From the IMG/VR virus record IMGVR_UViG_2693429662_000017: a DNA stretch of 12,220 bases; one strand, given 5' to 3'. The notes beneath the pieces are model-generated. The model did no database searches, was not told the DNA's origin, and saw only the letters and a list, made by a program, of their open reading frames with translations. This document shows positions 1,595 to 11,333 of the stretch, piece after piece. Position 1 is the stretch's first letter; every line of letters begins with the position of its first letter. Made by a program: the position numbers and the translations under genes. Source of the DNA: a virus. Taxonomy: Duplodnaviria > Heunggongvirae > Uroviricota > Caudoviricetes.

Positions 1595-1618
1595 TACCCT
1601 TTATACCATGTCCTTATT

Positions 1619-1647
1619 GACCCCGTATATTACGGGGTCGTTTTTGT
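1619..1647 (+). terminator. Intrinsic terminator downstream of yciE
   Basis: Seen: perfect 9-bp stem GACCCCGTA / TACGGGGTC with a 3-nt loop (1619-1639), followed by GTTTTTGTG. It sits between yciE and the convergent ompW remnant, so it may work in both directions. Confidence 0.6.
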
Positions 1648-1653
1648 GCGGAA

Positions 1654-1770
1654 TTAAAAACGATATCCTGCTGAGAACATAAACACCCACGGATCGAGGC
1701 GTACGCTATCGTGTTGCTGTGCACCGCCCAGCTTATAATTGGCGGTGGTATCGATATCCATGTACCACAC
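1654..1770 (-). pseudogene. ompW: ompW 3'-terminal fragment (last ~38 codons), displaced by prophage integration
   Basis: Seen: the - strand frame reads ...VWYMDIDTTANYKLGGAQQHDSVRLDPWVFMFSAGYRF then stop (stop codon 1654-1656), with an in-frame TGA at 1780-1782 cutting it off upstream and no start codon. Established: this matches the C-terminus of E. coli OmpW as recalled, and ompW lies convergent to yciE in K-12. The ORF-track call 1614..1814 is in a different frame and is not this gene. Confidence 0.55.
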
Positions 1771-2080
1771 TGGTAGGTTTCAAAAAACACAATAACCAAT
1801 TGTATTTGAAGCAAAAAACAAGACTTTGAGATGTTTTTTTGTACCTTTTTTTTATGTTTTTAACTGTCTGATTTTATTGAAATCTTTTTTAGTTTTGCAG
1901 AAGGAATTTTTTACTTGATTGTAACTTTTTCGTTTTTTTGGGGCTAATTGACGCGCAATGCTGGGCGGGGAGCGCACAGCCAAAAAAACCGAAATTGACC
2001 GCTAATTACTGCCAATCATCATCGCTCTGATTGAGCGTAAATCATTCAGGTTATTCAGTTCTTCCTTCTGCTCTCGCTGA
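1771..2080. other. AT-rich non-coding region at the prophage end, candidate attR arm
   Basis: Seen: ~300 bp with no credible ORF, multiple T/A tracts and an 8-bp A/T palindrome around 1812-1838 (AAAAAACA...TGTTTTTT). Inference: its position between the truncated ompW end and the phage cargo is where integrase arm and IHF sites would be. The exact core cannot be fixed without the other prophage end. Confidence 0.3.
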
Positions 2081-2082
2081 CG

Positions 2083-2253
2083 TCAATAAATCCCATCATT
2101 GCGATCAACCTCATCCTTAACCATTGATGCGAGCAGTTCTTCCAGTTTCTGCGCTGATAGCTTTACCTGGTGATCTTCAGCATCTTCCCGGGCTATTGTG
2201 GTTCGCGCAGTGGCTGATTTTGCTGACATCACCACAGGGGGCAGACGGACCAT
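2083..2253 (-). CDS. Hypothetical small acidic protein (56 aa from ATG 2253; 48 aa if ATG 2229)
   Basis: Seen: ORF MVRLPPVVMSAKSATARTTIAREDAEDHQVKLSAQKLEELLASMVKDEVDRNDGIY, with GGAGG 10 nt upstream of the ATG at 2253. The ORF track's longer 2364 start would read through the repeat hairpin and is unlikely. No recognisable family; coding status uncertain. Confidence 0.3.
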   Translation of the reverse strand: MVRLPPVVMSAKSATARTTIAREDAEDHQVKLSAQKLEELLASMVKDEVDRNDGIY

Positions 2254-2317
2254 TGAACCATGGCCTCCGGAACAAATAAGGGCAAAAATAACAACCACTA
2301 TCGAAAGCTCACAAACT

Positions 2318-2533
2318 AACCGCAGCACGTTCCTGCATACGACGTGTCTGCGGCATAATCCCAATGATTACTCCCTGACAGGATTTGCAGGCCACTCAAT
2401 ATCAGGTGCAGTTGATGTATCAACACGATTCAACAATACCCGATATTTATTCCATGCCTCCAGCAACGATCTTTCTTCCTCCGTTGCGATTTCCAGATCT
2501 ACAGCATCCTGCAGTGGCGCAATATACTCACTG
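2318..2533. repeat. Direct repeat copy B (~215 bp, ~90% identical to 3368-3583): tfa 3' end plus downstream hairpin
   Basis: Seen: by-eye alignment of 2318-2533 with 3368-3583, including the hairpin CCGCAGCACGT...ACGTG(T)CTGCGG at 2320-2353 and the shared CATAATCCCAATGATTACTCCCTGACAGG block. Similarity is lost on both sides. Confidence 0.65.
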
Positions 2534-2637
2534 AATTCCTGGATGTAGAACTGTGTGGTGACGGTCTTCCAGCCATTCGGCTCCTGCTGTATCGAAGCAT
2601 ACCAGGCTATTTCAATATCGCTATGCTGCGGCAGCAT
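2368..2637 (-). CDS. tfa: Short tail fibre assembly-like protein (89 aa): unique 38-aa N-terminus fused to the conserved Tfa C-terminal ~51 aa
   Basis: Seen: ATG at 2637 with AGGGG 4 nt upstream and an in-frame TAA immediately before it. The C-terminal [51 protein letters not shown] is about 90% identical to the C-terminus of the full tfa at 3417-4001. Could be a functional short chaperone or a recombination remnant. Confidence 0.5.
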
Positions 2638-2645
2638 TTAACCCC

Positions 2646-2674
2646 TTGTAATTCATCGCCATAATTGATTTAAT
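2646..2674 (+). promoter_or_regulatory. Candidate sigma70 promoter for the methyltransferase gene
   Basis: Seen: TTGTAA (2646-2651), 17-bp spacer, TTTAAT (2669-2674), about 20 bp upstream of the ORF. Inference only; the -35 overlaps the RBS of the divergent tfa-like ORF. Confidence 0.25.
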
Positions 2675-2693
2675 TCACAAACAAAACTATAAC

Positions 2694-3362
2694 ATGGTGA
2701 AATCAATGAAAAAAAACACAGATGATGGGGCTAAAATTTACACACCACTTACCCTAAAGCTTTATGACTGGTGGGTTTTGGGAGTATCAAATCGGCTTGC
2801 ATGGGGATGTCCTACAAAGGAACACCTTCTTCCACACTTTCTGGAACATGTAGGTAACAACCATCTGGATATTGGTGTTGGAACTGGGTTTTACCTTACT
2901 CACGTACCTGAGAGTAGTCTGATATCTTTAATGGATTTGAACAAAGCTAGCCTGAACGCGGCATCTACAAGGGCTGGGGAATCAAAAATTAAACATAAAA
3001 TTAGCCATGATGTTTTTGAACCTTATCCCGCGGCGTTACATGGTCAATTTGATTCCATTTCCATGTTTTACCTTCTTCACTGCCTGCCTGGAAATATATC
3101 TACAAAAAGCTGTGTAATACGCAATGCGGCGCAGGCCTTAACTGACGATGGAACTCTATACGGAGCCACAATTCTTGGCGATGGAGTTGTGCACAATAGC
3201 TTCGGTCAAAAACTGATGCGCATTTACAATCAGAAAGGCATCTTTTCAAACACAAAAGATTCCGAAGAAGGCTTAACACATATACTCTCAGAGCATTTCG
3301 AGAATGTTAAAACCAAGGTTCAAGGTACTGTAGTAATGTTTTCCGCTTCAGGGAAAAAATAG
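2694..3362 (+). CDS. Class I SAM-dependent methyltransferase, substrate unknown (222 aa; alternative start ATG 2706 gives 218 aa)
   Basis: Seen: Rossmann motif I LDIGVGTG at residues 58-65 (nt 2865-2888), acidic beta2 end LISLMDLN (D81), and FDSISMFYLLHCLPG as a motif II/III-like strand. The ORF looks AT-rich by eye compared with the flanking tail genes and is convergent with tfa. GGTGA sits 5 nt upstream of the second ATG at 2706. No (D/N)PP(Y/F) or PC motif, so not an obvious DNA methyltransferase. Confidence 0.7.
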   Translation: MVKSMKKNTDDGAKIYTPLTLKLYDWWVLGVSNRLAWGCPTKEHLLPHFLEHVGNNHLDIGVGTGFYLTHVPESSLISLMDLNKASLNAASTRAGESKIKHKISHDVFEPYPAALHGQFDSISMFYLLHCLPGNISTKSCVIRNAAQALTDDGTLYGATILGDGVVHNSFGQKLMRIYNQKGIFSNTKDSEEGLTHILSEHFENVKTKVQGTVVMFSASGKK

Positions 3363-3367
3363 CATCC

Positions 3368-3583
3368 AACCGCAGCACGTTCTTGCTTAAGACGTGCTGC
3401 GGCATAATCCCAATGATTACTCCCTGACAGGGTTCGTAGGCCACTCAATATCAGGTGCAGTTGATGTATCAACACGGTTCAGCAACACCCGATACTTTTT
3501 CCAGGCTTCCAGCAATGAGGTTTCTTCCTCCGTTGCAATTTCCAGATCTGCAGCATCCTGAAGCGGCGCAATATGCTCACTGG
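3368..3583. repeat. Direct repeat copy A (~215 bp): 3' end of the full-length tfa plus downstream hairpin
   Basis: Seen: aligns with 2318-2533 at about 90% identity. Together the two copies bracket an ~0.85 kb segment carrying the methyltransferase gene. Confidence 0.65.
3370..3402 (-). terminator. Hairpin between the convergent methyltransferase and tfa genes (probable tfa terminator, possibly bidirectional)
   Basis: Seen: perfect 11-bp stem CCGCAGCACGT / ACGTGCTGCGG with an 11-nt loop. On the - strand it is followed 8 nt later by TATTTTTT; on the + strand it lies 8 nt after the methyltransferase stop with no U-run. Confidence 0.45.
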
Positions 3584-4001
3584 CTACCTGCATCAGGTTG
3601 TTTTTTGTTTCTTCCGCCTCCCGGATCCGGAACATTTTTTCTGCTTCCGTATCCTTCACCCAGGCTGTGCCGTTCCACTTCTGAAACTCCCCTTCCGGCG
3701 ATAACCAGGTAACATTTTCCGGTAACGGACCGAGTTCAGAAATAAATAACTCGTCCCCTGACGCTACGTCATAAACCGTTTTACCCCGATGGTCTTCAAC
3801 GAGATGCCACGATGCCTCATCACTGTTGAAAACAGCCACAAAGCCAGCAGGAATATCTGGTGGTGCAATATCGGTACTGTTTGCTGGCAGACCTGTATGA
3901 GGCGGAATATATGCGTCACCTTCACCAATAAATTCATTAGTTCCGGCCAGCAGATTATAAATTTTTATGGTCCGTGCTTGTTCACTCATTCTGAATGCCA
4001 T
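3417..4001 (-). CDS. tfa: Tail fibre assembly protein Tfa (194 aa)
   Basis: Seen: ATG at 4001 overlaps the stf stop by 1 nt (TAATG), implying translational coupling. Established: the product ([24 protein letters not shown]...) is near-identical to lambda Tfa as recalled. Confidence 0.9.
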
Positions 4002-6835
4002 TATGCAAGCCTCACAATATAGTTAAATGCGATGTTTTTGACGGTGTTTTCCGCGTTACCAGCAGCGTTAACGGTGATGGTGTGTCCATGTGAACCAATC
4101 GCAACGGAGTGCGTATGCGCACCAATACCTACAGTATGTGCATGTGCGCCAGAACTTGCTGCAGTACCAGACAGCGAGTGGGTATGAGCACCTGCTGACT
4201 GTGTCTGAATACGTTGATAATACGATCTACGGGAAGAAGTCTCCGGGCTTACTTGATACTGTGAATCCTGGACATAAGTGAACCCACCGCCATCATAAAA
4301 TGCTAACGCAGAACCGCCGCCTCCTGGCCAACGAATACCATTACCATGAGTATGATCACCGGCAGCCCCCGTAGAGCCACTCAGACTGTGCGTATGCGCC
4401 CCGGTGTTATTCGTGGATTTGGTTCCGTAATCAAACGACGATGTGTTTTTCGTCCCCAAATCCGTACTGGATGCGCTGGCGCTGTGGGTGTGCGATTTAA
4501 TGCCGTCCTGTTCCTGAGACAATACGGCACGACCACTGGCGGGTTTGCCCTTAATCGTCCAGCCACGCATATCAGGGATCACGCCTGACGGATAAGCGGC
4601 TGCAAGTTTCGGGTATGCAGATTTGTCAAAAGTCTGCCCCTGCATCAGGGCATAACCAGACGGAACGGTATCTGATGGCCACGGGATTGGTGCGCCGACT
4701 GGGTAGCTTTCTGGTGGAAGATTTTTCGAGGTATAAACTTCTGCCCAGTCTTCCTCAAAACCATAACCGTCTCTTGAAGAACGGTAGAACAGACCACCAT
4801 TTCTGTAATGCGCCTTCATCTGCAAGGTCCGGCAACTTCCGACTCCGGTATAGAAGTTAACCAGAATATAGCTGTCGCCAGAGCGGGTGACATTGTAAGC
4901 GCCTGATTCGGCATTCCAGGGAACGGCTCCATCCGAATCCGCATAAGCCCCCGTCGAACGTCGGGCAAATGCACCAATATTTTCCGGCGTGAGGTTAATA
5001 TCCGCCGAGCCATCAAACTTAACACCGTTAATTTTTGGGTCTGCCGCAAGTTTCGTCGCGGTATCGGCGTTCCCCTTCAGTGCCCCGGTGATCCCATCAG
5101 TAACAGACAACGGACCTGAAATAGTCCCTCCAGTTGTTGGCAGCGCTCCAATATCTGATGGTGTAGGTTTCTGATGTGAGCTATACATCGTATAAACAAC
5201 ACCATCGGTAACGCTGGAAGGCTTACTCGCTGAATATGTTAGCGAGGTATAAATAGAAACTGACGCATTTGTAGTACAATCCCAATGGATATTTACACTC
5301 GTCGCATAATTGCCAATCTCAACGTAAATATCATATATATCGCCGGATGTGTTGATCCAGGCGAAATTCGTTAATCCGACGGCTGTACGCTTCCACAAAG
5401 CTCCGGTAATCCCTTTGGGGTTTCCATTGCCTGCTCGTAGAACCAGTTCAGATATACCTGCCTGTTGAGGTGCCCCCACGTTAAATCCAGCGCCACCAAT
5501 CAATGCGATGTAAACGATGGAACTCGCTTGTGGCATGGTAACCGTTGCCAGTTTGAACCACCCTGCCCCGCCAGAGAAAGAGATCGTTACTGAATTTAAA
5601 GTGCCAATATCTTTCGGTGTTAATGTTATATCCGCAGTCAGTGCTTTCCCGTTAACTTTTCGGTTAGATGGTACCCTGCCATTCGCATTGTCATTCGCTG
5701 CTTTAACTGCCTTCGGTGTCGCGGCAAGCGTTTCAGATGTGCTGTTGGTTGCACTGCTGAGCTGTACTATCCCCTTTTTCGTCGTGCTCGCATCCTCAAG
5801 CGCCACGGCGGATGCAATATCCTCTGCCCGTTTTGCCGCTGTCTCGGCGCGCGTTGCCGCGGATTCCGCCGTACTTTTGCTCTGAGCTGCCGCCGTCGCA
5901 CTGCCAGCTGCCTCTGTCGCCTTCGTGGATGCCGTCGTGGCGCTGCCCTTTGCTGCTGACGCCTGTCTGGTCGCCTCATCTTTTGAAGCAGACGCAGATG
6001 ATGCCGATGACGCCGCCGAACTGGCGGACGATGCGGCAGCCGTTTTTGAGGATTCTGCGCTGGTTTCCGAGGCTTTCGCGTTCGTTTCGGATGTCTTCGC
6101 TGCCTCTTTTGAGGCCGCCGCATCCCGTGCTGAAGTGGCTGCTTCTGACGCTTTCGTGGTCGCGGTGGATGCAGAAGTGGCTGCTGATTGTTGTGACGCA
6201 GCCGCATTCGTTTCTGACGTTTTCGCCGCACCGGCACTGGTAGCCACCGCGCTTTTTGAGGACTCTGCAGCGGCAGCACTTTTTGATGCTTCAGTAGCCT
6301 TTGTTGATGCCGTTCCTGCGCTGGAAGACGCTGACTGAGCCGACGTCGCGGCCTGCCCGGCTGATGTGCTGGCTGCACGTGCTGAGCCTGCAGCATCAGT
6401 CGCATGGGTTGCCGCCTCACTGGCAGATATGCTGGCATCGCTGGCTGACTTCTTCGCGGCTGCCGTGTTCTGTGCAACCGCGGAGGCGTTACGTGACACC
6501 TCTTCTACCATCTGCTCAAAGCGGCGCAGTGCCTCCGGTCGGACATCATCCTCCGTCATGGCACCGAGAAAATCATTCAGCGTACCTGGTCTGGAACCTT
6601 CATAGACGATAATGGTCCCGGCATGTGAAGGCGGAAAACCTTCAACCAGCAGGGTGACGCTGTACTGACCATGCTCAACATCCATGCTGTAACGTCCGGC
6701 TTCATCCGGATTTTCAGAGGCCACCGTGTTCACCACCACCGTGCTGCTGGTTCGTCTGGCCTTCAGCACAATGGTGCAGTTCTGTACTGGTTTTCCTGTG
6801 CCATCTTTAAGCACGCCAGAAATTTTTACTGTCAT
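4001..6835 (-). CDS. stf: Side tail fibre protein Stf (944 aa), mosaic
   Basis: Seen: GGTGGA RBS 5 nt upstream of the ATG at 6835; Ala/Ser/Thr-rich low-complexity region at residues ~120-345; C-terminal His-x-His repeats ([24 protein letters not shown]). Established: N-terminal ~120 aa and C-terminal ~230 aa match lambda Stf as recalled, and His-x-His repeats are a fibre-tip feature. Inference: the central ~330 aa differ from lambda. Confidence 0.9.
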
Positions 6836-6986: not shown

Positions 6987-7586
6987 TCAGAAACGGTATC
7001 CGATACCAACAATAAATGCATCCGTTCGCCAGTCGCCACTACCGGAACCTTCATAAGCAAGGTCAATGGTCACGGATTCGGTCGGGTTAAACTGCACGCC
7101 AGCCCCCCACGCCAGAGACGTGTTGCTGTGGCGACCGTCATCACTTCCGGTCAGCACATCGTGCGTTTTCCCCTTGTTGTCAGTTACGCGAAGATAATCC
7201 CCGGAGAAAGTCGACACACGGCTGTAAGCCACTCCCGCCATCGAATACGCGCTGAACCATTCATTCACGCGTACAGACGGCCCCGCCATCACGCTGAACC
7301 AGCGGTTACGCACGGAATCTTCATGCCAGCGGGTATCGCTGTAGCGCGTTTTTTGCTCATCCTCAGCATTGGCATAACTGAAGGACGTAATCAGCCCCAG
7401 CGCGTCCGTAAACTCATAACGGTATTTCACGTTAATCCCGTTCAGATCATCACTACCGGGAACGTTCGTCGAGGCATGGAGATACCCCGCGCTCAGCGTG
7501 GACTGATGTTCTGCTGCACTCGCTGGCGTAGCAGCGGCGACCTGCCAGACTACTGCGGACAAAATAACAGCACATAATTTACGCAT
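6987..7586 (-). CDS. lom: Lom, Ail/Lom-family outer membrane beta-barrel protein (199 aa)
   Basis: Seen: signal-peptide-like N-terminus (MRKLCAVILSAVVWQVAAATPASA), C-terminal ...GIGYRF with terminal Phe typical of OMPs, and GAGAGG 5 nt upstream of the ATG. Established: homologous to lambda Lom as recalled. Confidence 0.9.
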   Translation of the reverse strand: MRKLCAVILSAVVWQVAAATPASAAEHQSTLSAGYLHASTNVPGSDDLNGINVKYRYEFTDALGLITSFSYANAEDEQKTRYSDTRWHEDSVRNRWFSVMAGPSVRVNEWFSAYSMAGVAYSRVSTFSGDYLRVTDNKGKTHDVLTGSDDGRHSNTSLAWGAGVQFNPTESVTIDLAYEGSGSGDWRTDAFIVGIGYRF

Positions 7587-7653: not shown

Positions 7654-10600
7654 TCAGCTAATCGTGATGCCTGCAGTGGCTTTCTTCATCACCACAACCA
7701 GCAAATCGCTGATACTTGCTGTGGGATACCAGTTATTTACCAGCCATGCTGACACCGAAAACTCCAGTGTCATGTGACCGTGACCGGCAGGCATATCAAT
7801 AACACCACTGTAAATCAGCGTATTATCCAGCGCGGTACGGTTATAAATTTCAGCACCGTTTTTCCGCACTATCAGACGGCATGAGGAGTAAATATCAGTA
7901 TGCTCTTTCTCATGTTTAGCGCCGCTGAATGCCACCGCCGGAATAACAATCTGCCGGTCAAACGGCTGATCGTCATAAACCCTGACGGTAATGGTTCCTG
8001 ATGGCCACCGCTCCGGTGCACGGGAGTCCCGGGGGAAAGCTTTGCCCACTGTTTTAACGAGATCGCCTTCAATCTGGTTCGCGGACAATTTTCCCAGAAC
8101 CCGACAGTTCTCGTTAATCGTGACGTTGTTGAGCGTCCCGGAGTTCGCATTCACGTTACCGCTGATATCGGCATTTTTCGCCGTCAGCCGCCCGTCCGGT
8201 GTCAGGGAAAATGCCGGAGGATTACCGCCGCTGGTAATGGTGGGAGCCGTCAGATATTTCAGGAACACTTCATTCATGAATATCTGATCGCCCTGACCAA
8301 CAAACATCGGCTTTGTGTTGCCATTCGCAGGATTAATCATCGCAATCCTGTCTGCCGCCAGCAGCACCTGACTCTGCATTCCTGCTGGCGTATTCTCAAT
8401 ACCGGCACCGATACCCGCAATATAAAGGCGTCCGTCCTGCATCTGCTGCAGTTTCACGGCCCACATGCTGTTCAGGTTATTATTTGTATCAACCTGAACT
8501 TTCTGTATCTGCTGGATTGCCGCACTCTGATTTTCCAGTTTTTTATTGACGGTCTGCGTGATTTCATTGCTGACATTCGTAATGGACGTCCTGATTTCAG
8601 CCAGGTCCGGCGCAAGCTGACCGTTATCAATCTGCGTCCACAGCTCCTGGGCCAGATGTGTTTTCCCGATTTCTCCTTTGAAAAAATCCAGGTAACCTTC
8701 CGCATCATCGCTCGCCCGACCGACAGCCTCCACGAATGCCGATTTGCCAACAGTATTCACACTGCGGATATAAAAATAATAATCATGGCCCGGTTTGATA
8801 TTGATACTGGCAGCTATCCAGTACAGCGCCGAGCCAAGATAGCGGGCTGCGGTTTCAACCTGCCTGATATCCGCAATCCGCTTTTCCGAGAACCAGAACT
8901 CAAACTGTACCGTCGGGTCATAAACGGCAAGATGTGGCGTTGCGGTTATCTGAAAATAGCCCGGCGTCAGCTCAATCCGCGACGGTGCTGCCGGTGCGGT
9001 AATCCGGAAGGTGGTGGTGGCAGGTTCACCCTGCTGGCCATAGCTGTTTATCGCCCGCACCGTCAGGGTGTATTCCCCGAGCGGCAGGCCGCTGAAACGG
9101 TGCTCCGTGTCTGCGGTGATGGCGGTGGTCACCAGTCTGGCATCCGTTCCCTTACCACTGGTCAGGCGCAGACTGAAGCGCACACCCTTCACCACCCGCG
9201 GCGTGTCCCATTTCGCCTGCGCCAGATACTGGCCGTCAGCTGCGCTCACCTCCACCGTCAGGTGCTGCACTGCCGGTGGGATGACGCTGTTCAGGGAACC
9301 TGACTGCGGCTCAAAGCGGGCACCGTTATCCACAATGGCTTCTTTTTCCGGTACGTGCTGCACCGCCGTGATGGCGAACGTGCCGTCCGTGTTTTCCCGG
9401 ATGGAGACACAGCGGAACAGGCGACGACGCAGTGACGGCAGGGAGAGTCCCCACACCCCGTATGTCTCCACACCATCCGGCAGGGTGCTGACCTGTATCC
9501 GGTCAGGCGCGGGGTGTGCGGTGATGGCCACGCTCGCCGGCTTACCGCTGCCGTTAATCAGATTAACAGTGGCCGTGCCGGTCTCCGGCAGTGTCACCTC
9601 CCGGTCCAGCGTCAGGGTACGGCTGGCGGCATCGATGGACAGGACACGTCCGCCGGTCATGGTCCCGGCATAGTCGTTATCACAGATTTCAATGATGTCA
9701 CCGGGTGTGTGACGCAGCCCCTGTGACCCAAGCGTGAAATCCACCGTCTGCGTTTCCAGCAGTTCGGTCTTTATCACCCACAGCCCGGCACGGTGGGCCT
9801 GACCGCGGCTGGTACAGCCGAACGCGTCCATCTTCAGCAGGTTGCGTCCGTAGCGCAGTATGGCTTCCGGGTCTTCCACCAGTTCCGTGGAGGTCTGCCA
9901 GCCATTCTGCGGGTCGGTGTAATTCACCTCCACTGCCGTGTGCCGGTCCTTCAGGGCACTGAAGCTGTAGCGGAAACCCACGCCGTTATCATCCACCACC
10001 ACATCGCTGTTGGTGTACGGCCACACCACATCCGACGGACGGTCCTGAACGAACGTCAGCGTCTGGCCGTTCCATACCGGCATACAGCGCATCGCAGAGC
10101 AGAAATCACTGAGAACGTCCCACGCCTTACGCTGTTGTGCCAGGTACGCATTAAAGGTCATCCGCGGCTCGGTCCCCCCGAAACCATCCGGGACCGTCTG
10201 GTCGCAGTACTGCCCGATGGCATACAGCGCCCACTTGTCCACATCCGCCGCCCCCAGACGTTTTCCCATGCCGTAGCGCGGGTGAGTCAGCATGTCCCAC
10301 AGACACCAGGCCGGGTTGTTGCTGTATGCCGGTTTCAGGCTGCCGTCCCAGATACCACTGTACGTGCGTTTTTCCGGGTCATAGTTTGACGGCACCTGGA
10401 TGATGCGACCGCGGATATGGTAGTTCACCGTCATCTGCTGGCCGCCGAACTGCTCCGCATCCACCTGCAGCCCCACAATGGCCGTGTTCGGGTAGCACTG
10501 TTTCACATCGATGATTTCGGTGTATGACGACCACAGCGTCTTATTCTGCAGCTGGTCCGTGGTGCTGTCCGCCGTCTCCCTGACCATCCGGATGTTAAAG

Positions 10601-11127
10601 GGCCGGGGAGGCAGATTATCCAGAATCACCGAGGCCAGGAACTGTGAGGTGGTCTTGCCGTTAATGGTGACGTCCTTTTCCGTCACCCAGCGGCCATTAC
10701 GCTGTAACTGAATCAGAATCCGGACAGAGGAAGGATTACGGTCGCCCTTTGACGTGGTCTGCACCAGTGACTGCACCCCGAAGGTAACCCGCAGGCGGTC
10801 AATGTTCGCGGACGTAATGGTGCGCGTCACCGGTTTTGCCTTCGTCACTTCCACGCCCAGTCCGGTTTCAGCACCGGAGGACTCAAAGCCTTCCGGTGGT
10901 GTCTGCTCCTGCTCCCCGGCGCGCCAGACCGCCGTCACACCGTGTATCACGGGATTACCGTCCGTGTCCGTCAGCGGGGTTTTGTTCACCAGGATACTCT
11001 GCAGTCCCTTCACCGGGCCTTCTATCGGTCCCTCACCAATCGCATCAATCACACTCATCATCTGCGTGGATTTGAGATTATCCTTCGCCTCACGCGGTGT
11101 GTGCCCCTTGCCGCCCCCTTTACCCAC
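7654..11127 (-). CDS. J: Host specificity / tail tip protein J (about 1157 aa from GTG 11127; frame open to TTG 11172)
   Basis: Seen: GTG at 11127 preceded by GGAGAGGGGG 5 nt upstream. Established: from (V)[19 protein letters not shown] onward the protein is collinear with lambda gpJ as recalled, with a divergent C-terminal ~150 aa. The exact start is uncertain; the TTG at 11172 cannot be excluded. Confidence 0.85.
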
Positions 11128-11333
11128 TCTGTCCCCCTCTCCTGTCTGATGTCTGAATCTGTTTATGCCCAAAAAACAACAGGCACCCCGGAGGATGCCT
11201 GTATCATGACTGAATAAAAATTCTGAATATCTTCACATTTTCACAAACTGACTGTGGTGCTAATAATTTCTCTGCGTTAATGTTTTTTGTCGTGACATAA
11301 GAATAATTCCTTACACTTAATCTTCGTAACTCT

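What the first reader, a model, noticed from the sequence alone, without database searches (positions are those of the whole stretch)
2318..3583. Methyltransferase cargo cassette bracketed by ~215-bp direct repeats of the tfa 3' end
A + strand, AT-rich 222-aa ORF sits between two direct repeats (2318-2533 and 3368-3583, about 90% identical). Each repeat comprises the last ~50 codons of a tfa gene plus the same downstream 11-bp-stem hairpin. The methyltransferase is convergent with the intact tfa, and its candidate -35 overlaps the RBS of the divergent short tfa-like ORF. This looks like a moron captured by homologous recombination within the conserved tfa 3' end, a position where lambdoid prophages often carry effector, virulence or defence cargo. 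The repeats could also mediate precise loss of the cassette.
Basis: seen in the sequence. Interest (0 to 1): 0.7.

Follow-up and report, generated by a model that had tools for sequence, protein, structure and literature searches.

The report
ybcY methyltransferase cassette between tfa repeats
The repeat-flanked methyltransferase is real, but it is the already-annotated ybcY cargo gene of lambda-like E. coli prophages (as in K-12 DLP12), copied into this prophage by ordinary homologous recombination within the tail-fibre-assembly gene; what it methylates is still unknown.

Summary
Segments 2318-2533 and 3368-3583 are direct repeats (194/217 aligned columns, 89.4%). Each holds the last ~55 codons of a tfa gene plus a GC-rich hairpin, and they flank an intact, AT-rich (41% GC) class I SAM methyltransferase gene convergent with the full tfa.

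The object is not new. It is ybcY, lying between tfa and the tfaX' remnant exactly as in K-12 DLP12. The gene is in 3,832 of 5,426 complete E. coli genomes and in isolated phages (PhiR26_1, 2G7b, ev243). The repeat unit is Rfam family IS009.

The recombination reading is supported. On both sides of the cassette this ompW-integrated prophage is 99-100% identical to cassette-less sibling prophages at the same site, whereas 2413-3437 is 99-100% identical to PhiR26_1/2G7b. Diagnostic sites switch cleanly at 2413-2427 and 3438-3536, so the patch is one repeat period (~1,049 bp). Twenty genomes carry the cassette-less form. Whether they never gained the cassette or lost it is unresolved.

YbcY looks like a small-molecule or lipid methyltransferase, not a DNA methyltransferase or a known defence protein. 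Its homologs elsewhere are stand-alone chromosomal genes, and the substrate is unknown. Novelty: already known. Interest is low to moderate.

The parts
1654..1779 (-). ompW 3' remnant. It marks the prophage/chromosome junction beside yciE (context only).
   Evidence: PGAP annotation of the 99.9% identical region in strain HH35, with coordinates transferred using an offset of 7401.
2002..2271 (-). DUF4376 / tail-fibre-related pseudogene, a further scar of tail-fibre gene exchange. It forms the left flank shared with the cassette-less prophages.
   Evidence: PGAP 'DUF4376 domain-containing protein, internal stop, partial'. The overlapping ORF matches PHROG 7703/1141 (tail fibre). The flank is 99-100% identical in the cassette-less loci L008, L010 and L011.
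2318..2533 (.). Left direct repeat: tfa 3' end plus hairpin. It is chimeric, with backbone-type sequence at 2318-2412 and donor (tfaX')-type sequence from 2428.
2320..2353 (.). Left hairpin: an 11-bp stem with a 1-nt bulge. It is identical to the hairpin of the cassette-less prophages and to a second hairpin in lambda's b region.
2368..2637 (-). tfa' remnant (equivalent to tfaX of DLP12), an 89-aa ORF. Only residues ~27-89 are Tfa-like. It is probably a decaying fragment.
   Evidence: Caudo_TAP match covers only profile positions 75-130. PHROG 2341. tblastn matches to other Tfa proteins begin at residues 27-39. PGAP calls it partial or pseudo, and it is variously truncated in K-12, O157, CFSAN018748 and 2G7b.
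2413..2427 (.). Crossover interval 1, where sequence switches from backbone type to cassette-donor type.
2534..2693 (.). Unique AT-rich spacer. It holds the non-homologous junction of the cassette, the candidate ybcY promoter(s) and the start of the divergent tfa' ORF.
   Evidence: No match in lambda or the cassette-less loci; 98-99% identical in every ybcY-carrying locus examined. TTAACC-16-CATAAT at 2638-2665. The K-12 homologous spacer is listed with RpoD promoters and H-NS binding (PMC3946193).
2694..3362 (+). ybcY: an intact class I SAM-dependent methyltransferase. The likely true start is ATG 2706.
   Evidence: Pfam. PHROG 2132, E=1.9e-156. 99% identical to cluster P0002, which has 6,589 members. 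All invariant family residues are present. AF2 model with pLDDT 90.9 and an MTase fold.
3368..3583 (.). Right direct repeat: hairpin plus the 3' end of the functional tfa.
3370..3402 (.). Right hairpin with a perfect 11-bp stem. It lies 7 nt after the ybcY stop codon and 14 nt after the tfa stop codon. It is a probable shared transcript end, but no adjacent U-tract follows it.
   Evidence: The terminator scan did not flag it.
3438..3536 (.). Crossover interval 2, where sequence switches from cassette-donor type back to backbone type. It includes the position equivalent to interval 1 (3462-3476).
3417..4001 (-). Full-length lambda-type tail fibre assembly gene tfa (194 aa).
   Evidence: Caudo_TAP E=1.3e-44. 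The tfa N-terminal part (3584-4001) is 95.5% identical to lambda.
3460..3658 (-). Rfam RF02111 'IS009' match inside tfa. A second, sub-threshold match lies at 2411-2614 (-).
   Evidence: 223.8 bits (gathering score 117) for the right copy and 112.5 bits for the left copy.
4001..6835 (-). Side tail fibre gene stf (944 aa). Upstream are lom (6987-7586) and J (7654-11172). These form the prophage backbone (context only).

Best explanation
The region is the ybcY accessory-gene module of lambdoid coliphages. An intact, separately transcribed class I SAM-dependent methyltransferase gene sits just past the end of the late (tail) operon. It is convergent with the functional tfa and is followed by a 5'-truncated tfa remnant (tfaX'). 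The direct repeats are simply the homologous 3' ends of these two tfa copies.

In this prophage, which is integrated in ompW next to yciE, the module arrived as a patch of about 1,049 bp (one repeat period) from a PhiR26_1/DLP12-type phage. Homologous recombination inserted it, with both exchange points in the conserved tfa 3' end, most likely in the 40-bp block of perfect identity at 2388-2427 / 3437-3476. The event was either a double crossover or Campbell-type integration of a circle excised between the donor's repeats. The same repeats allow the reverse event, precise loss.

Shown: the identity of the parts, the presence/absence polymorphism, and the two crossover intervals.

Inferred: YbcY is expressed from its own promoter in the AT-rich, probably H-NS-bound spacer. 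The shared hairpin ends or insulates the two convergent transcripts. The enzyme methylates a small molecule or lipid in the lysogen, with some conditional benefit to the host; the substrate is unknown.
For: Identity. K-12 DLP12 has the layout tfaD'-ybcY(frameshifted)-tfaX'-appY-ompT. PhiR26_1 annotates the gene as YbcY, between Tfa and a short Tfa. The gene matches PHROG 2132 over its full length. It is in 3,832 of 5,426 genomes; the left tfa'/ybcY junction is in 3,442 and the right ybcY/hairpin/tfa junction in 3,019.

Patch. In the segment table, flank 1600-2317, tfa N-part, lom and J are 99.3-99.9% identical to cassette-less strain 190693, and tfa N-part, lom and J are 99.2-99.9% identical to cassette-less strain NMBU. 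By contrast, 2413-3461 is 99-100% identical to PhiR26_1/2G7b. Diagnostic sites run 22 E then 9 D in the left copy and 10 D then 9 E in the right copy (alignments).

Empty form. The synthetic deletion product matches 20 genomes as a single piece. The four inspected are at the same trp-yciGFE-ompW' site with the same DUF4376' flank. Lambda has a single tfa plus hairpin followed by ea47.

Mechanism precedent. Lambda acquires marker cassettes from Rac and Qin by Red-beta/RecA recombination across stf-tfa homology of 88-96% identity. A foreign gene placed between tfa and ea47 does not affect phage growth (PMC3945230).

Enzyme. The GxGxG motif and acidic residues are intact. The model is confident. 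The nearest structures are PmtA, DhpI, JHAMT, phosphoethanolamine MTases, UbiG/Coq5 and natural-product MTases. Family-level dN/dS is about 0.12.

Promoter. The K-12 ybcY/tfaX spacer is listed with RpoD promoters and H-NS.
Against: The direction of the polymorphism is not resolved for the 20 cassette-less genomes. Strain 190693 shows a mixed R,R,L,R pattern at four sites, so it is neither a clean deletion product nor a clean ancestor.

Promoter-like hits are no more frequent than in shuffled sequence. Neither hairpin has an adjacent U-tract, and the right one was not called a terminator.

No expression or activity data exist for an intact ybcY. The K-12 copy is a pseudogene, and its deletion had no phenotype in the one assay found. 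The E. coli copies are too similar to each other to show selection within the species.

Confidence: 0.8

Rival explanations
1. The repeats are only a scar of tail-fibre (host-range) module replacement. An incoming stf-tfa(-ybcY) block was joined illegitimately into the middle of a resident tfa, leaving tfaX' behind. ybcY is a passive hitch-hiker, and the repeats have no continuing role in its mobility.
For: The ybcY/tfaX' junction (2534-2693) has no tfa homology, so the module's first assembly was non-homologous. A third tail-fibre remnant (DUF4376') follows directly. In 2G7b the module sits behind an unrelated fibre set, with tfa remnants on both sides. The tfa' ORF is variously truncated between strains.
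Against: In this window both ends of the donor-type patch fall inside the repeat, and the backbone is unchanged on both sides. Recombination in the repeat therefore did move the module. This rival explains the module's origin, not its arrival in this prophage; the two accounts are complementary.
Confidence: 0.35
2. ybcY is a phage defence or counter-defence gene, for example a DNA- or RNA-modifying methyltransferase that protects phage DNA or excludes superinfecting phages.
For: Its position at the end of the tail operon is a common site for lysogenic-conversion and defence cargo (general knowledge; neighbours include lom, and ompT and bor in DLP12-type phages). There is a weak PADLOC hit to mad2 (E=0.018).
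Against: No DNA-methylase Pfam family matches. The PADLOC hit is not significant. There is no partner gene, since the module is a single gene. Homologs are stand-alone chromosomal genes in non-phage contexts across Gammaproteobacteria. The closest structures are small-molecule and lipid methyltransferases.
Confidence: 0.07
3. The functional unit is the repeated element itself: the IS009 small RNA, with or without the hairpin RNA, is expressed from both tfa 3' copies, and the methyltransferase is incidental.
For: Rfam IS009 matches the right copy at 223.8 bits, above its gathering score, and the left copy at 112.5 bits. There is a weak CssrB-like match over the hairpin. The hairpin stem is kept by a compensatory change in lambda.
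Against: The IS009 match lies entirely inside the tfa coding sequence on the coding strand, and another study excluded the family for that reason (PMC5331693). The conservation is explained by the Tfa C-terminal domain, which is shared with P2, P1, Mu and lambda. No experimental characterisation was found.
Confidence: 0.05
4. The cassette is a decaying remnant with no function. ybcY is drifting towards pseudogene status, as it has in K-12.
For: The K-12 copy is frameshifted. Truncated protein clusters exist (161 aa with 445 members, 130 aa with 30 members). The region is reported as H-NS-bound. The K-12 mutant had no phenotype.
Against: The full-length 222-aa cluster has 6,589 members. The window copy keeps every invariant residue. 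The gene is carried intact by isolated, viable phages. The family is under purifying selection between genera (omega about 0.12).
Confidence: 0.12

Closest known systems
tfaD'-ybcY-tfaX' of the E. coli K-12 cryptic prophage DLP12 (with the same module in phages PhiR26_1, PhiR29/30, 2G7b and ev243)
   Same: Same gene (98.5-99.6% nucleotide identity). Same order and orientation: tfa, convergent ybcY, then a short tfa remnant. Same AT-rich spacer and same right-hand hairpin.
   Different: In K-12 the gene is frameshifted and the upstream tfa is truncated. In DLP12/PhiR26-type elements the 3' end of the left remnant is not lambda-like and has no hairpin, so the repeat there is only ~120 bp, and alpha/beta-hydrolase-ompT (or appY-ompT) follows it. 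In the window the left remnant was recombined onto a lambda-type tfa 3' end, hairpin and DUF4376' flank, giving a 216-bp repeat at an ompW-integrated prophage.
Phage morons (Hendrix/Juhala concept) and the lambda b-region gene ea47
   Same: A single extra gene with atypical base composition, inserted between genes that are adjacent in related phages and lying next to a stem-loop. Like ea47, it sits immediately after the tfa hairpin and is convergent with tfa. In lambda, ea47 is itself bracketed by two copies of the same hairpin.
   Different: Autonomous promoter and terminator activity has not been shown here. Lambda has no tfa remnant beside its second hairpin.
Recombination of lambda with defective prophages across stf-tfa homology (De Paepe et al. 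2014, PMC3945230)
   Same: Transfer of an inserted cassette between lambdoid elements by Red-beta/RecA homologous recombination in diverged (88-96%) tail-fibre-gene homology. The position after tfa tolerates foreign DNA.
   Different: That was a laboratory assay with antibiotic markers and several hundred bp of flanking homology. Here the event is natural, the homology is ~215 bp, and both exchanges fall in the same short segment, so a circular intermediate is possible.
Small-molecule and lipid class I SAM methyltransferases (bacterial PmtA 8ys9, DhpI 3ou2, insect JHAMT 7ec0, UbiG 4kdr)
   Different: Sequence identity is only 13-21%. The family-specific N-terminal motif YDWWVL..SN..AW.C.T and the invariant His/Cys residues have no assigned role. 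No substrate can be transferred from these relatives.
Invertible tail-fibre segments (Mu G/Gin, P1 C/Cin, e14 P/Pin)
   Same: Two tfa-family copies sit next to each other at the end of the tail-fibre region, and the same conserved Tfa C-terminal domain is involved.
   Different: The repeats are direct, not inverted. There is no invertase gene and no alternative fibre C-terminus. The second copy is a remnant.

Membership tests
Class I (Rossmann-fold) SAM-dependent methyltransferase | Motif I glycine-rich loop (E/DxGxGxG) with downstream acidic residues that bind SAM | tested here: met
   HLDIGVGTG (D59, G61, G63, G65), D81 and D106 are invariant across 40 family members, including the window copy.
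Class I (Rossmann-fold) SAM-dependent methyltransferase | Significant match to curated methyltransferase domain models | tested here: met
   Methyltransf_12 scores 37.1 bits (cut-off 30), Methyltransf_23 28.1 (27) and Methyltransf_11 24.4 (21.2).
Class I (Rossmann-fold) SAM-dependent methyltransferase | Alternating beta/alpha fold with a seven-stranded sheet, superposable on solved methyltransferases | tested here: met
Class I (Rossmann-fold) SAM-dependent methyltransferase | SAM binding and methyl transfer to a defined substrate | not testable with these tools
   This needs biochemistry. No published assay was found.
YbcY (PHROG 2132) of lambdoid prophages | Full-length, high-identity match to the family | tested here: met
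   PHROG 2132 E=1.9e-156, covering residues 5-222 against profile positions 1-218 of 218. 99% identity to cluster P0002. 98.5-99.7% DNA identity to the K-12, O157 and phage copies.
YbcY (PHROG 2132) of lambdoid prophages | Conserved position: convergent with tfa, followed by the tfaX' remnant | tested here: met
   The junctions are present in 3,019 and 3,442 genomes.
Moron (autonomous accessory gene of a temperate phage) | Present or absent between genes that are adjacent in closely related phages | tested here: met
   20 genomes have tfa joined directly to the DUF4376' flank. The same site and backbone are confirmed. Lambda also lacks the gene.
Moron (autonomous accessory gene of a temperate phage) | Nucleotide composition different from the surrounding phage genes | tested here: met
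   GC 41.0% and GC3 35.9%, against GC 47.9-56.9% and GC3 44-68% for tfa, stf, lom and J.
Moron (autonomous accessory gene of a temperate phage) | Own promoter and terminator, with expression from the repressed prophage | tested here: inconclusive
   A consensus promoter exists at 2638-2665, but hits are not enriched over shuffled sequence, and the hairpins lack U-tracts. The homologous K-12 spacer is listed as an RpoD-holoenzyme/H-NS site. No transcript data are available.
DNA methyltransferase / restriction-modification or other known defence system | DNA-methylase catalytic domain or a match to a defence-system model, usually with partner genes | tested here: not met
   No DNA-methylase Pfam family matches. 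The only PADLOC hit is non-significant (E=0.018). The module is a single gene. The nearest structures are small-molecule and lipid MTases.
Invertible tail-fibre (Gin/Cin/Pin) segment | Inverted repeats flanking alternative fibre and tfa genes, plus an adjacent serine invertase | tested here: not met
   The repeats are direct. No recombinase ORF or annotation lies between tfa and ompW'.
Rfam RF02111 IS009 | Covariance-model score above the gathering threshold | tested here: met
   The right copy scores 223.8 bits (gathering score 117). The left copy scores 112.5 bits, just below it.
Rfam RF02111 IS009 | Existence as a discrete non-coding RNA | not testable with these tools
   The match lies within the tfa coding sequence on the sense strand. 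Others have treated it as an in-gene element.

The most novel reading that the evidence does not exclude
The conserved tfa 3' end (the Rfam IS009 segment) may act as a portable homology arm that makes ybcY a recombination-mobilised cassette. The cassette would excise as a ~1-kb circle between its two tfa repeats and re-insert by a single crossover into the tfa of any lambda-type prophage. This would explain why the patch is exactly one repeat period and why the gene is in 70% of E. coli genomes. In this reading YbcY is a lysogenic-conversion enzyme that methylates an envelope lipid or metabolite; its closest fold match includes bacterial phosphatidylethanolamine N-methyltransferase, an activity E. 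coli is not known to possess.
Probability: 0.1. Interest if true: 0.55.

Novelty: already known. Interest (0 to 1): 0.22.

Why it matters
The window gives a clean, base-resolved natural example of how lambdoid prophages exchange accessory genes. A ~1-kb cargo patch was placed by homologous recombination inside a ~215-bp conserved stretch of the tail-fibre-assembly gene, and cassette-less siblings at the same chromosomal site serve as the comparison. It illustrates a process that is already established rather than revealing a new one. The open point is the function of YbcY, an intact, conserved, phage-borne methyltransferase found in about 70% of complete E. coli genomes and carried by viable phages. 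No substrate, phenotype or expression data exist for it.

Tried and rejected
(1) Methyltransferase/esterase pairing. Hydrolases lie near the gene in the phage, Enterobacter, Erwinia and Yersinia contexts. Clustering the neighbouring ORFs of 72 loci from many genera showed only genus-level synteny, and BLAST of the four hydrolases hit only themselves. Rejected as coincidence.

(2) Defence role. PADLOC gave only a non-significant hit.

(3) Curated family name. NCBIfam gave only far-sub-threshold hits to CpaM and RquA.

(4) Origin of the first ~26 residues of the 89-aa tfa' ORF. tblastn against phages found them only in ybcY-carrying phages, and other Tfa matches begin at residues 27-39, so this part is not recognisably Tfa.

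(5) Selection within E. coli. The copies differ by 0-3 substitutions, so dN/dS is uninformative.

(6) Polarity of the cassette-less genomes (ancestral or deletion). Site patterns are mosaic and do not decide it.

(7) AFDB fold search. The library was unavailable.

(8) Literature. Searches for tfaX/tfaD were mostly noise. No paper combined tail fiber assembly, moron, lambdoid and methyltransferase. ybcY appears only in gene lists, in one promoter/H-NS table, and as a mutant without phenotype.

(9) Intrinsic-terminator status of the hairpins. The scan did not call the right one and caught only a 5-bp partial stem of the left one.
Full report
CONTEXT. The window is E. coli chromosome. yciG (220-456), yciF (494-1042) and yciE (1088-1594) lie on the + strand. 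They are followed by a 3' remnant of ompW (about 1654-1779) and then the right end of a lambda-like prophage, all on the - strand. That end comprises a DUF4376 tail-fibre-related pseudogene (about 2002-2271), a short tfa-like ORF (2368-2637), full-length tfa (3417-4001), stf (4001-6835), lom (6987-7586) and J (7654-11172). The PGAP annotation of a 99.9% identical region in strain HH35 agrees.

One direct-repeat family dominates the window, with copies at 2318-2544 and 3368-3593 and spacing of 1050 then 1049 nt. The next longest family is 45 nt. Homology begins abruptly at AACCGCAGC and fades after CTCACTG.

The right copy is the last ~55 codons of tfa plus a perfect 11-bp-stem hairpin at 3370-3402. 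The left copy is the Tfa-like C-terminus of the 89-aa ORF plus the same hairpin with a one-base bulge at 2320-2353.

Between them lies an intact 222-aa ORF (2694-3362, + strand, convergent with tfa). It passes the Pfam thresholds for Methyltransf_12/23/11. It is more AT-rich (GC 41.0%, GC3 35.9%) than tfa, stf, lom and J (47.9-56.9%). Because 39 homologs and the PHROG profile begin at its fifth codon, the real start is probably ATG 2706.

However, such hits are no more common here than in shuffled sequence.

WHAT IT IS. The gene is ybcY. In K-12 the cryptic prophage DLP12 reads tfa fragment, frameshifted class I methyltransferase, tfa fragment, appY, ompT, envY. That is tfaD'-ybcY'-tfaX' in the K-12 gene names used by Shimada et al. 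(PMC3946193). The isolated phage PhiR26_1 labels the gene "putative uncharacterized protein YbcY" in the order J-lom-stf-tfa-[ybcY]-tfa'-alpha/beta-hydrolase-ompT. 2G7b has the same module behind an unrelated fibre set, followed by the integrase.

The gene is in 3,832 of 5,426 complete E. coli genomes at 95% identity or better. The left tfa'/ybcY junction is in 3,442 genomes and the right ybcY/hairpin/tfa junction in 3,019. The bracketed layout is therefore the norm, not a peculiarity of this window. The whole 1600-4100 arrangement is in 365 genomes.

The protein is PHROG 2132 and the 89-aa ORF is PHROG 2341; both are of unknown function. Rfam already holds the repeated tfa segment as family RF02111 IS009: the right copy scores 223.8 bits against a gathering score of 117, and the left copy 112.5 bits. 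Others have treated this element as lying inside genes on the sense strand (PMC5331693).

HOW THE CASSETTE GOT HERE. Lambda shows the empty state: one tfa, the hairpin, then ea47. I built the predicted deletion product (left flank, hybrid repeat, right flank). It matches 20 E. coli genomes as one uninterrupted piece. The four I inspected sit at the same trp-yciGFE-ompW' site, with the same DUF4376' flank running straight into a full-length tfa. This is a genuine presence/absence polymorphism.

A segment-by-segment comparison shows that the window's prophage is almost identical to cassette-less strain 190693 on both sides of the cassette: left flank 99.7%, tfa N-part 99.8%, lom 99.3% and J 99.9%. 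Strain NMBU matches equally well on the right side. In contrast, 2413-3461 is 99-100% identical to PhiR26_1 and 2G7b and only 88-92% identical to the cassette-less strains.

I then scored the sites that are fixed-different between four donor-type and four cassette-less loci. In the left copy they read 22 backbone-type (2318-2412) followed by 9 donor-type (2428-2526). In the right copy and tfa they read 10 donor-type (3363-3437) followed by 9 backbone-type (3537-3654) (alignments).

The exchange points are therefore 2413-2427 and 3438-3536. The second interval contains the position equivalent to the first (3462-3476). Both are compatible with the 40-bp block of perfect identity between the repeats. 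The inserted patch is thus one repeat period, about 1,049 bp. This is the product expected either from a double crossover or from single-crossover integration of a circle excised between the donor's two repeats. I cannot distinguish the two.

In donor-type contexts (K-12, O157, CFSAN018748, PhiR26_1, 2G7b) the left remnant is not lambda-like to the left of 2413 and has no hairpin. The 216-bp repeat with two hairpins is therefore itself a product of this recombination; the older repeat is about 120 bp. The junction between ybcY and the remnant (2534-2693) has no tfa homology, so the module was first assembled by a non-homologous event. This was most simply a tail-fibre module replacement that truncated a resident tfa.

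The mechanism has direct experimental precedent. Lambda picks up marker cassettes from Rac and Qin by Red-beta/RecA recombination across stf-tfa homology of 88-96% identity. A foreign gene placed between tfa and ea47 does not impair the phage (PMC3945230).

Whether the 20 cassette-less genomes never had the cassette or lost it is unresolved. Strain 190693 has a mixed pattern at four diagnostic sites.

WHAT THE ENZYME IS LIKELY TO DO. The window copy keeps every residue that is invariant in a 40-member alignment, including the DIGVGTG SAM loop and the acidic residues D81 and D106. The AlphaFold model is confident (pLDDT 90.9).

Homologs at 50-68% identity occur across Enterobacterales, Pasteurellaceae, Pseudomonas, Xanthomonas, Dyella and some Betaproteobacteria. 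In Salmonella, Enterobacter, Yersinia, Klebsiella, Erwinia and Aeromonas they are stand-alone genes in unrelated, non-phage neighbourhoods. Between genera the family is under purifying selection (omega about 0.12 with saturated dS).

The phage therefore carries a host-type, self-sufficient enzyme. My best guess, at roughly even odds, is that it methylates a small metabolite or lipid in the lysogen and is expressed from its own promoter. In K-12 the homologous spacer is listed as an RpoD-holoenzyme site with H-NS, which suggests silencing under laboratory conditions. A K-12 ybcY mutant had no phenotype in the only assay I found, but that allele is already a pseudogene.

RIVALS. Four alternatives were considered.

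- The repeats may be only a scar of fibre-module exchange. This explains the module's origin but not the repeat-internal crossovers seen here.
- A defence or DNA-modification role has no support.
- An IS009 small-RNA role is unsupported beyond the Rfam label.
- Pure decay is contradicted by the 6,589-member full-length protein cluster, by intact copies in viable phages, and by conservation of all invariant residues.

VERDICT. The object is an already-annotated, very common module, and the process is textbook lambdoid mosaicism. New here are the base-level mapping of the patch and the identification of cassette-less siblings. The unknown function of YbcY is the only real open question.

Noticed in passing
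L007 918-951 (lambda NC_001416, about 24162-24195), compared with window 2296-2354: Lambda carries a second copy of the tfa-downstream hairpin between ea31 and ea47. It is 100% identical to the window's left (bulged) hairpin and shares 59 nt (89.8%) with the window's hairpin plus its DUF4376-side flank. Lambda's ea47, convergent with tfa like ybcY, is therefore bracketed by two direct hairpin copies, with no tfa remnant. The hairpin immediately after lambda tfa differs by a compensatory stem change. This suggests the hairpin is a recurrent module-boundary element of the b region.
   Followed up: partly
L003 7534-9747 (E. coli O157:H7 F8492): A second, diverged yciG-yciF-yciE-like cluster plus a manganese catalase lies as prophage cargo immediately beside, and convergent with, another tfa. 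It is 73.9% identical in DNA to the window's chromosomal yciGFE. The layout mirrors the window (yciGFE facing a prophage tfa end). That would fit pick-up of host genes by imprecise excision of a prophage integrated at the ompW site in another species.
   Followed up: partly
window 3371-3433 (-): There is a weak, sub-threshold Rfam match of the right hairpin region to CssrB, a chromosome-encoded Shigella sRNA (32.6 bits, gathering score 76, E=3e-4).
   Followed up: no
window 3307-3444 (-): A 45-aa ORF overlaps the ybcY 3' end, the hairpin and the tfa 3' end. PGAP annotates it as 'hypothetical protein', and in K-12 AG100 as 'nucleocapsid protein'. It has no family match and is probably a spurious call.
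   Followed up: partly
window 2694-2706: The annotated start of ybcY (ATG 2694) is probably four codons too early. The homologs and PHROG 2132 start at the second Met (ATG 2706), which is preceded by GGTGA at a suitable distance.
   Followed up: partly
window 2002-2271 (-): A third tail-fibre-related remnant (DUF4376, with an internal stop) follows the tfa' remnant. The prophage end therefore carries a series of fibre-gene scars.
   Followed up: partly
window about 5400-6600, within stf: stf has a long Ala/Ser/Thr-rich low-complexity stretch in a ~60% GC region. The protein length varies between otherwise close prophages: 944 aa here, against 1035, 1056, 1008 and 1035 aa in HH35, 190693, NMBU and PigCaeca_2.
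   Followed up: no
L027, L036: Contigs binned as 'Bacillus sp.' and 'Planococcaceae' metagenome-assembled genomes carry ybcY at 99% identity to E. coli. This is almost certainly E. coli DNA that was mis-binned.
   Followed up: no
L011 6803-11247 (strain Evo1): In one cassette-less sibling prophage, stf is split into an N-terminal and a C-terminal pseudogene. Between them lie an SGNH/GDSL-hydrolase-family gene and two small ORFs, which is another fibre-module rearrangement at the same site.
   Followed up: no
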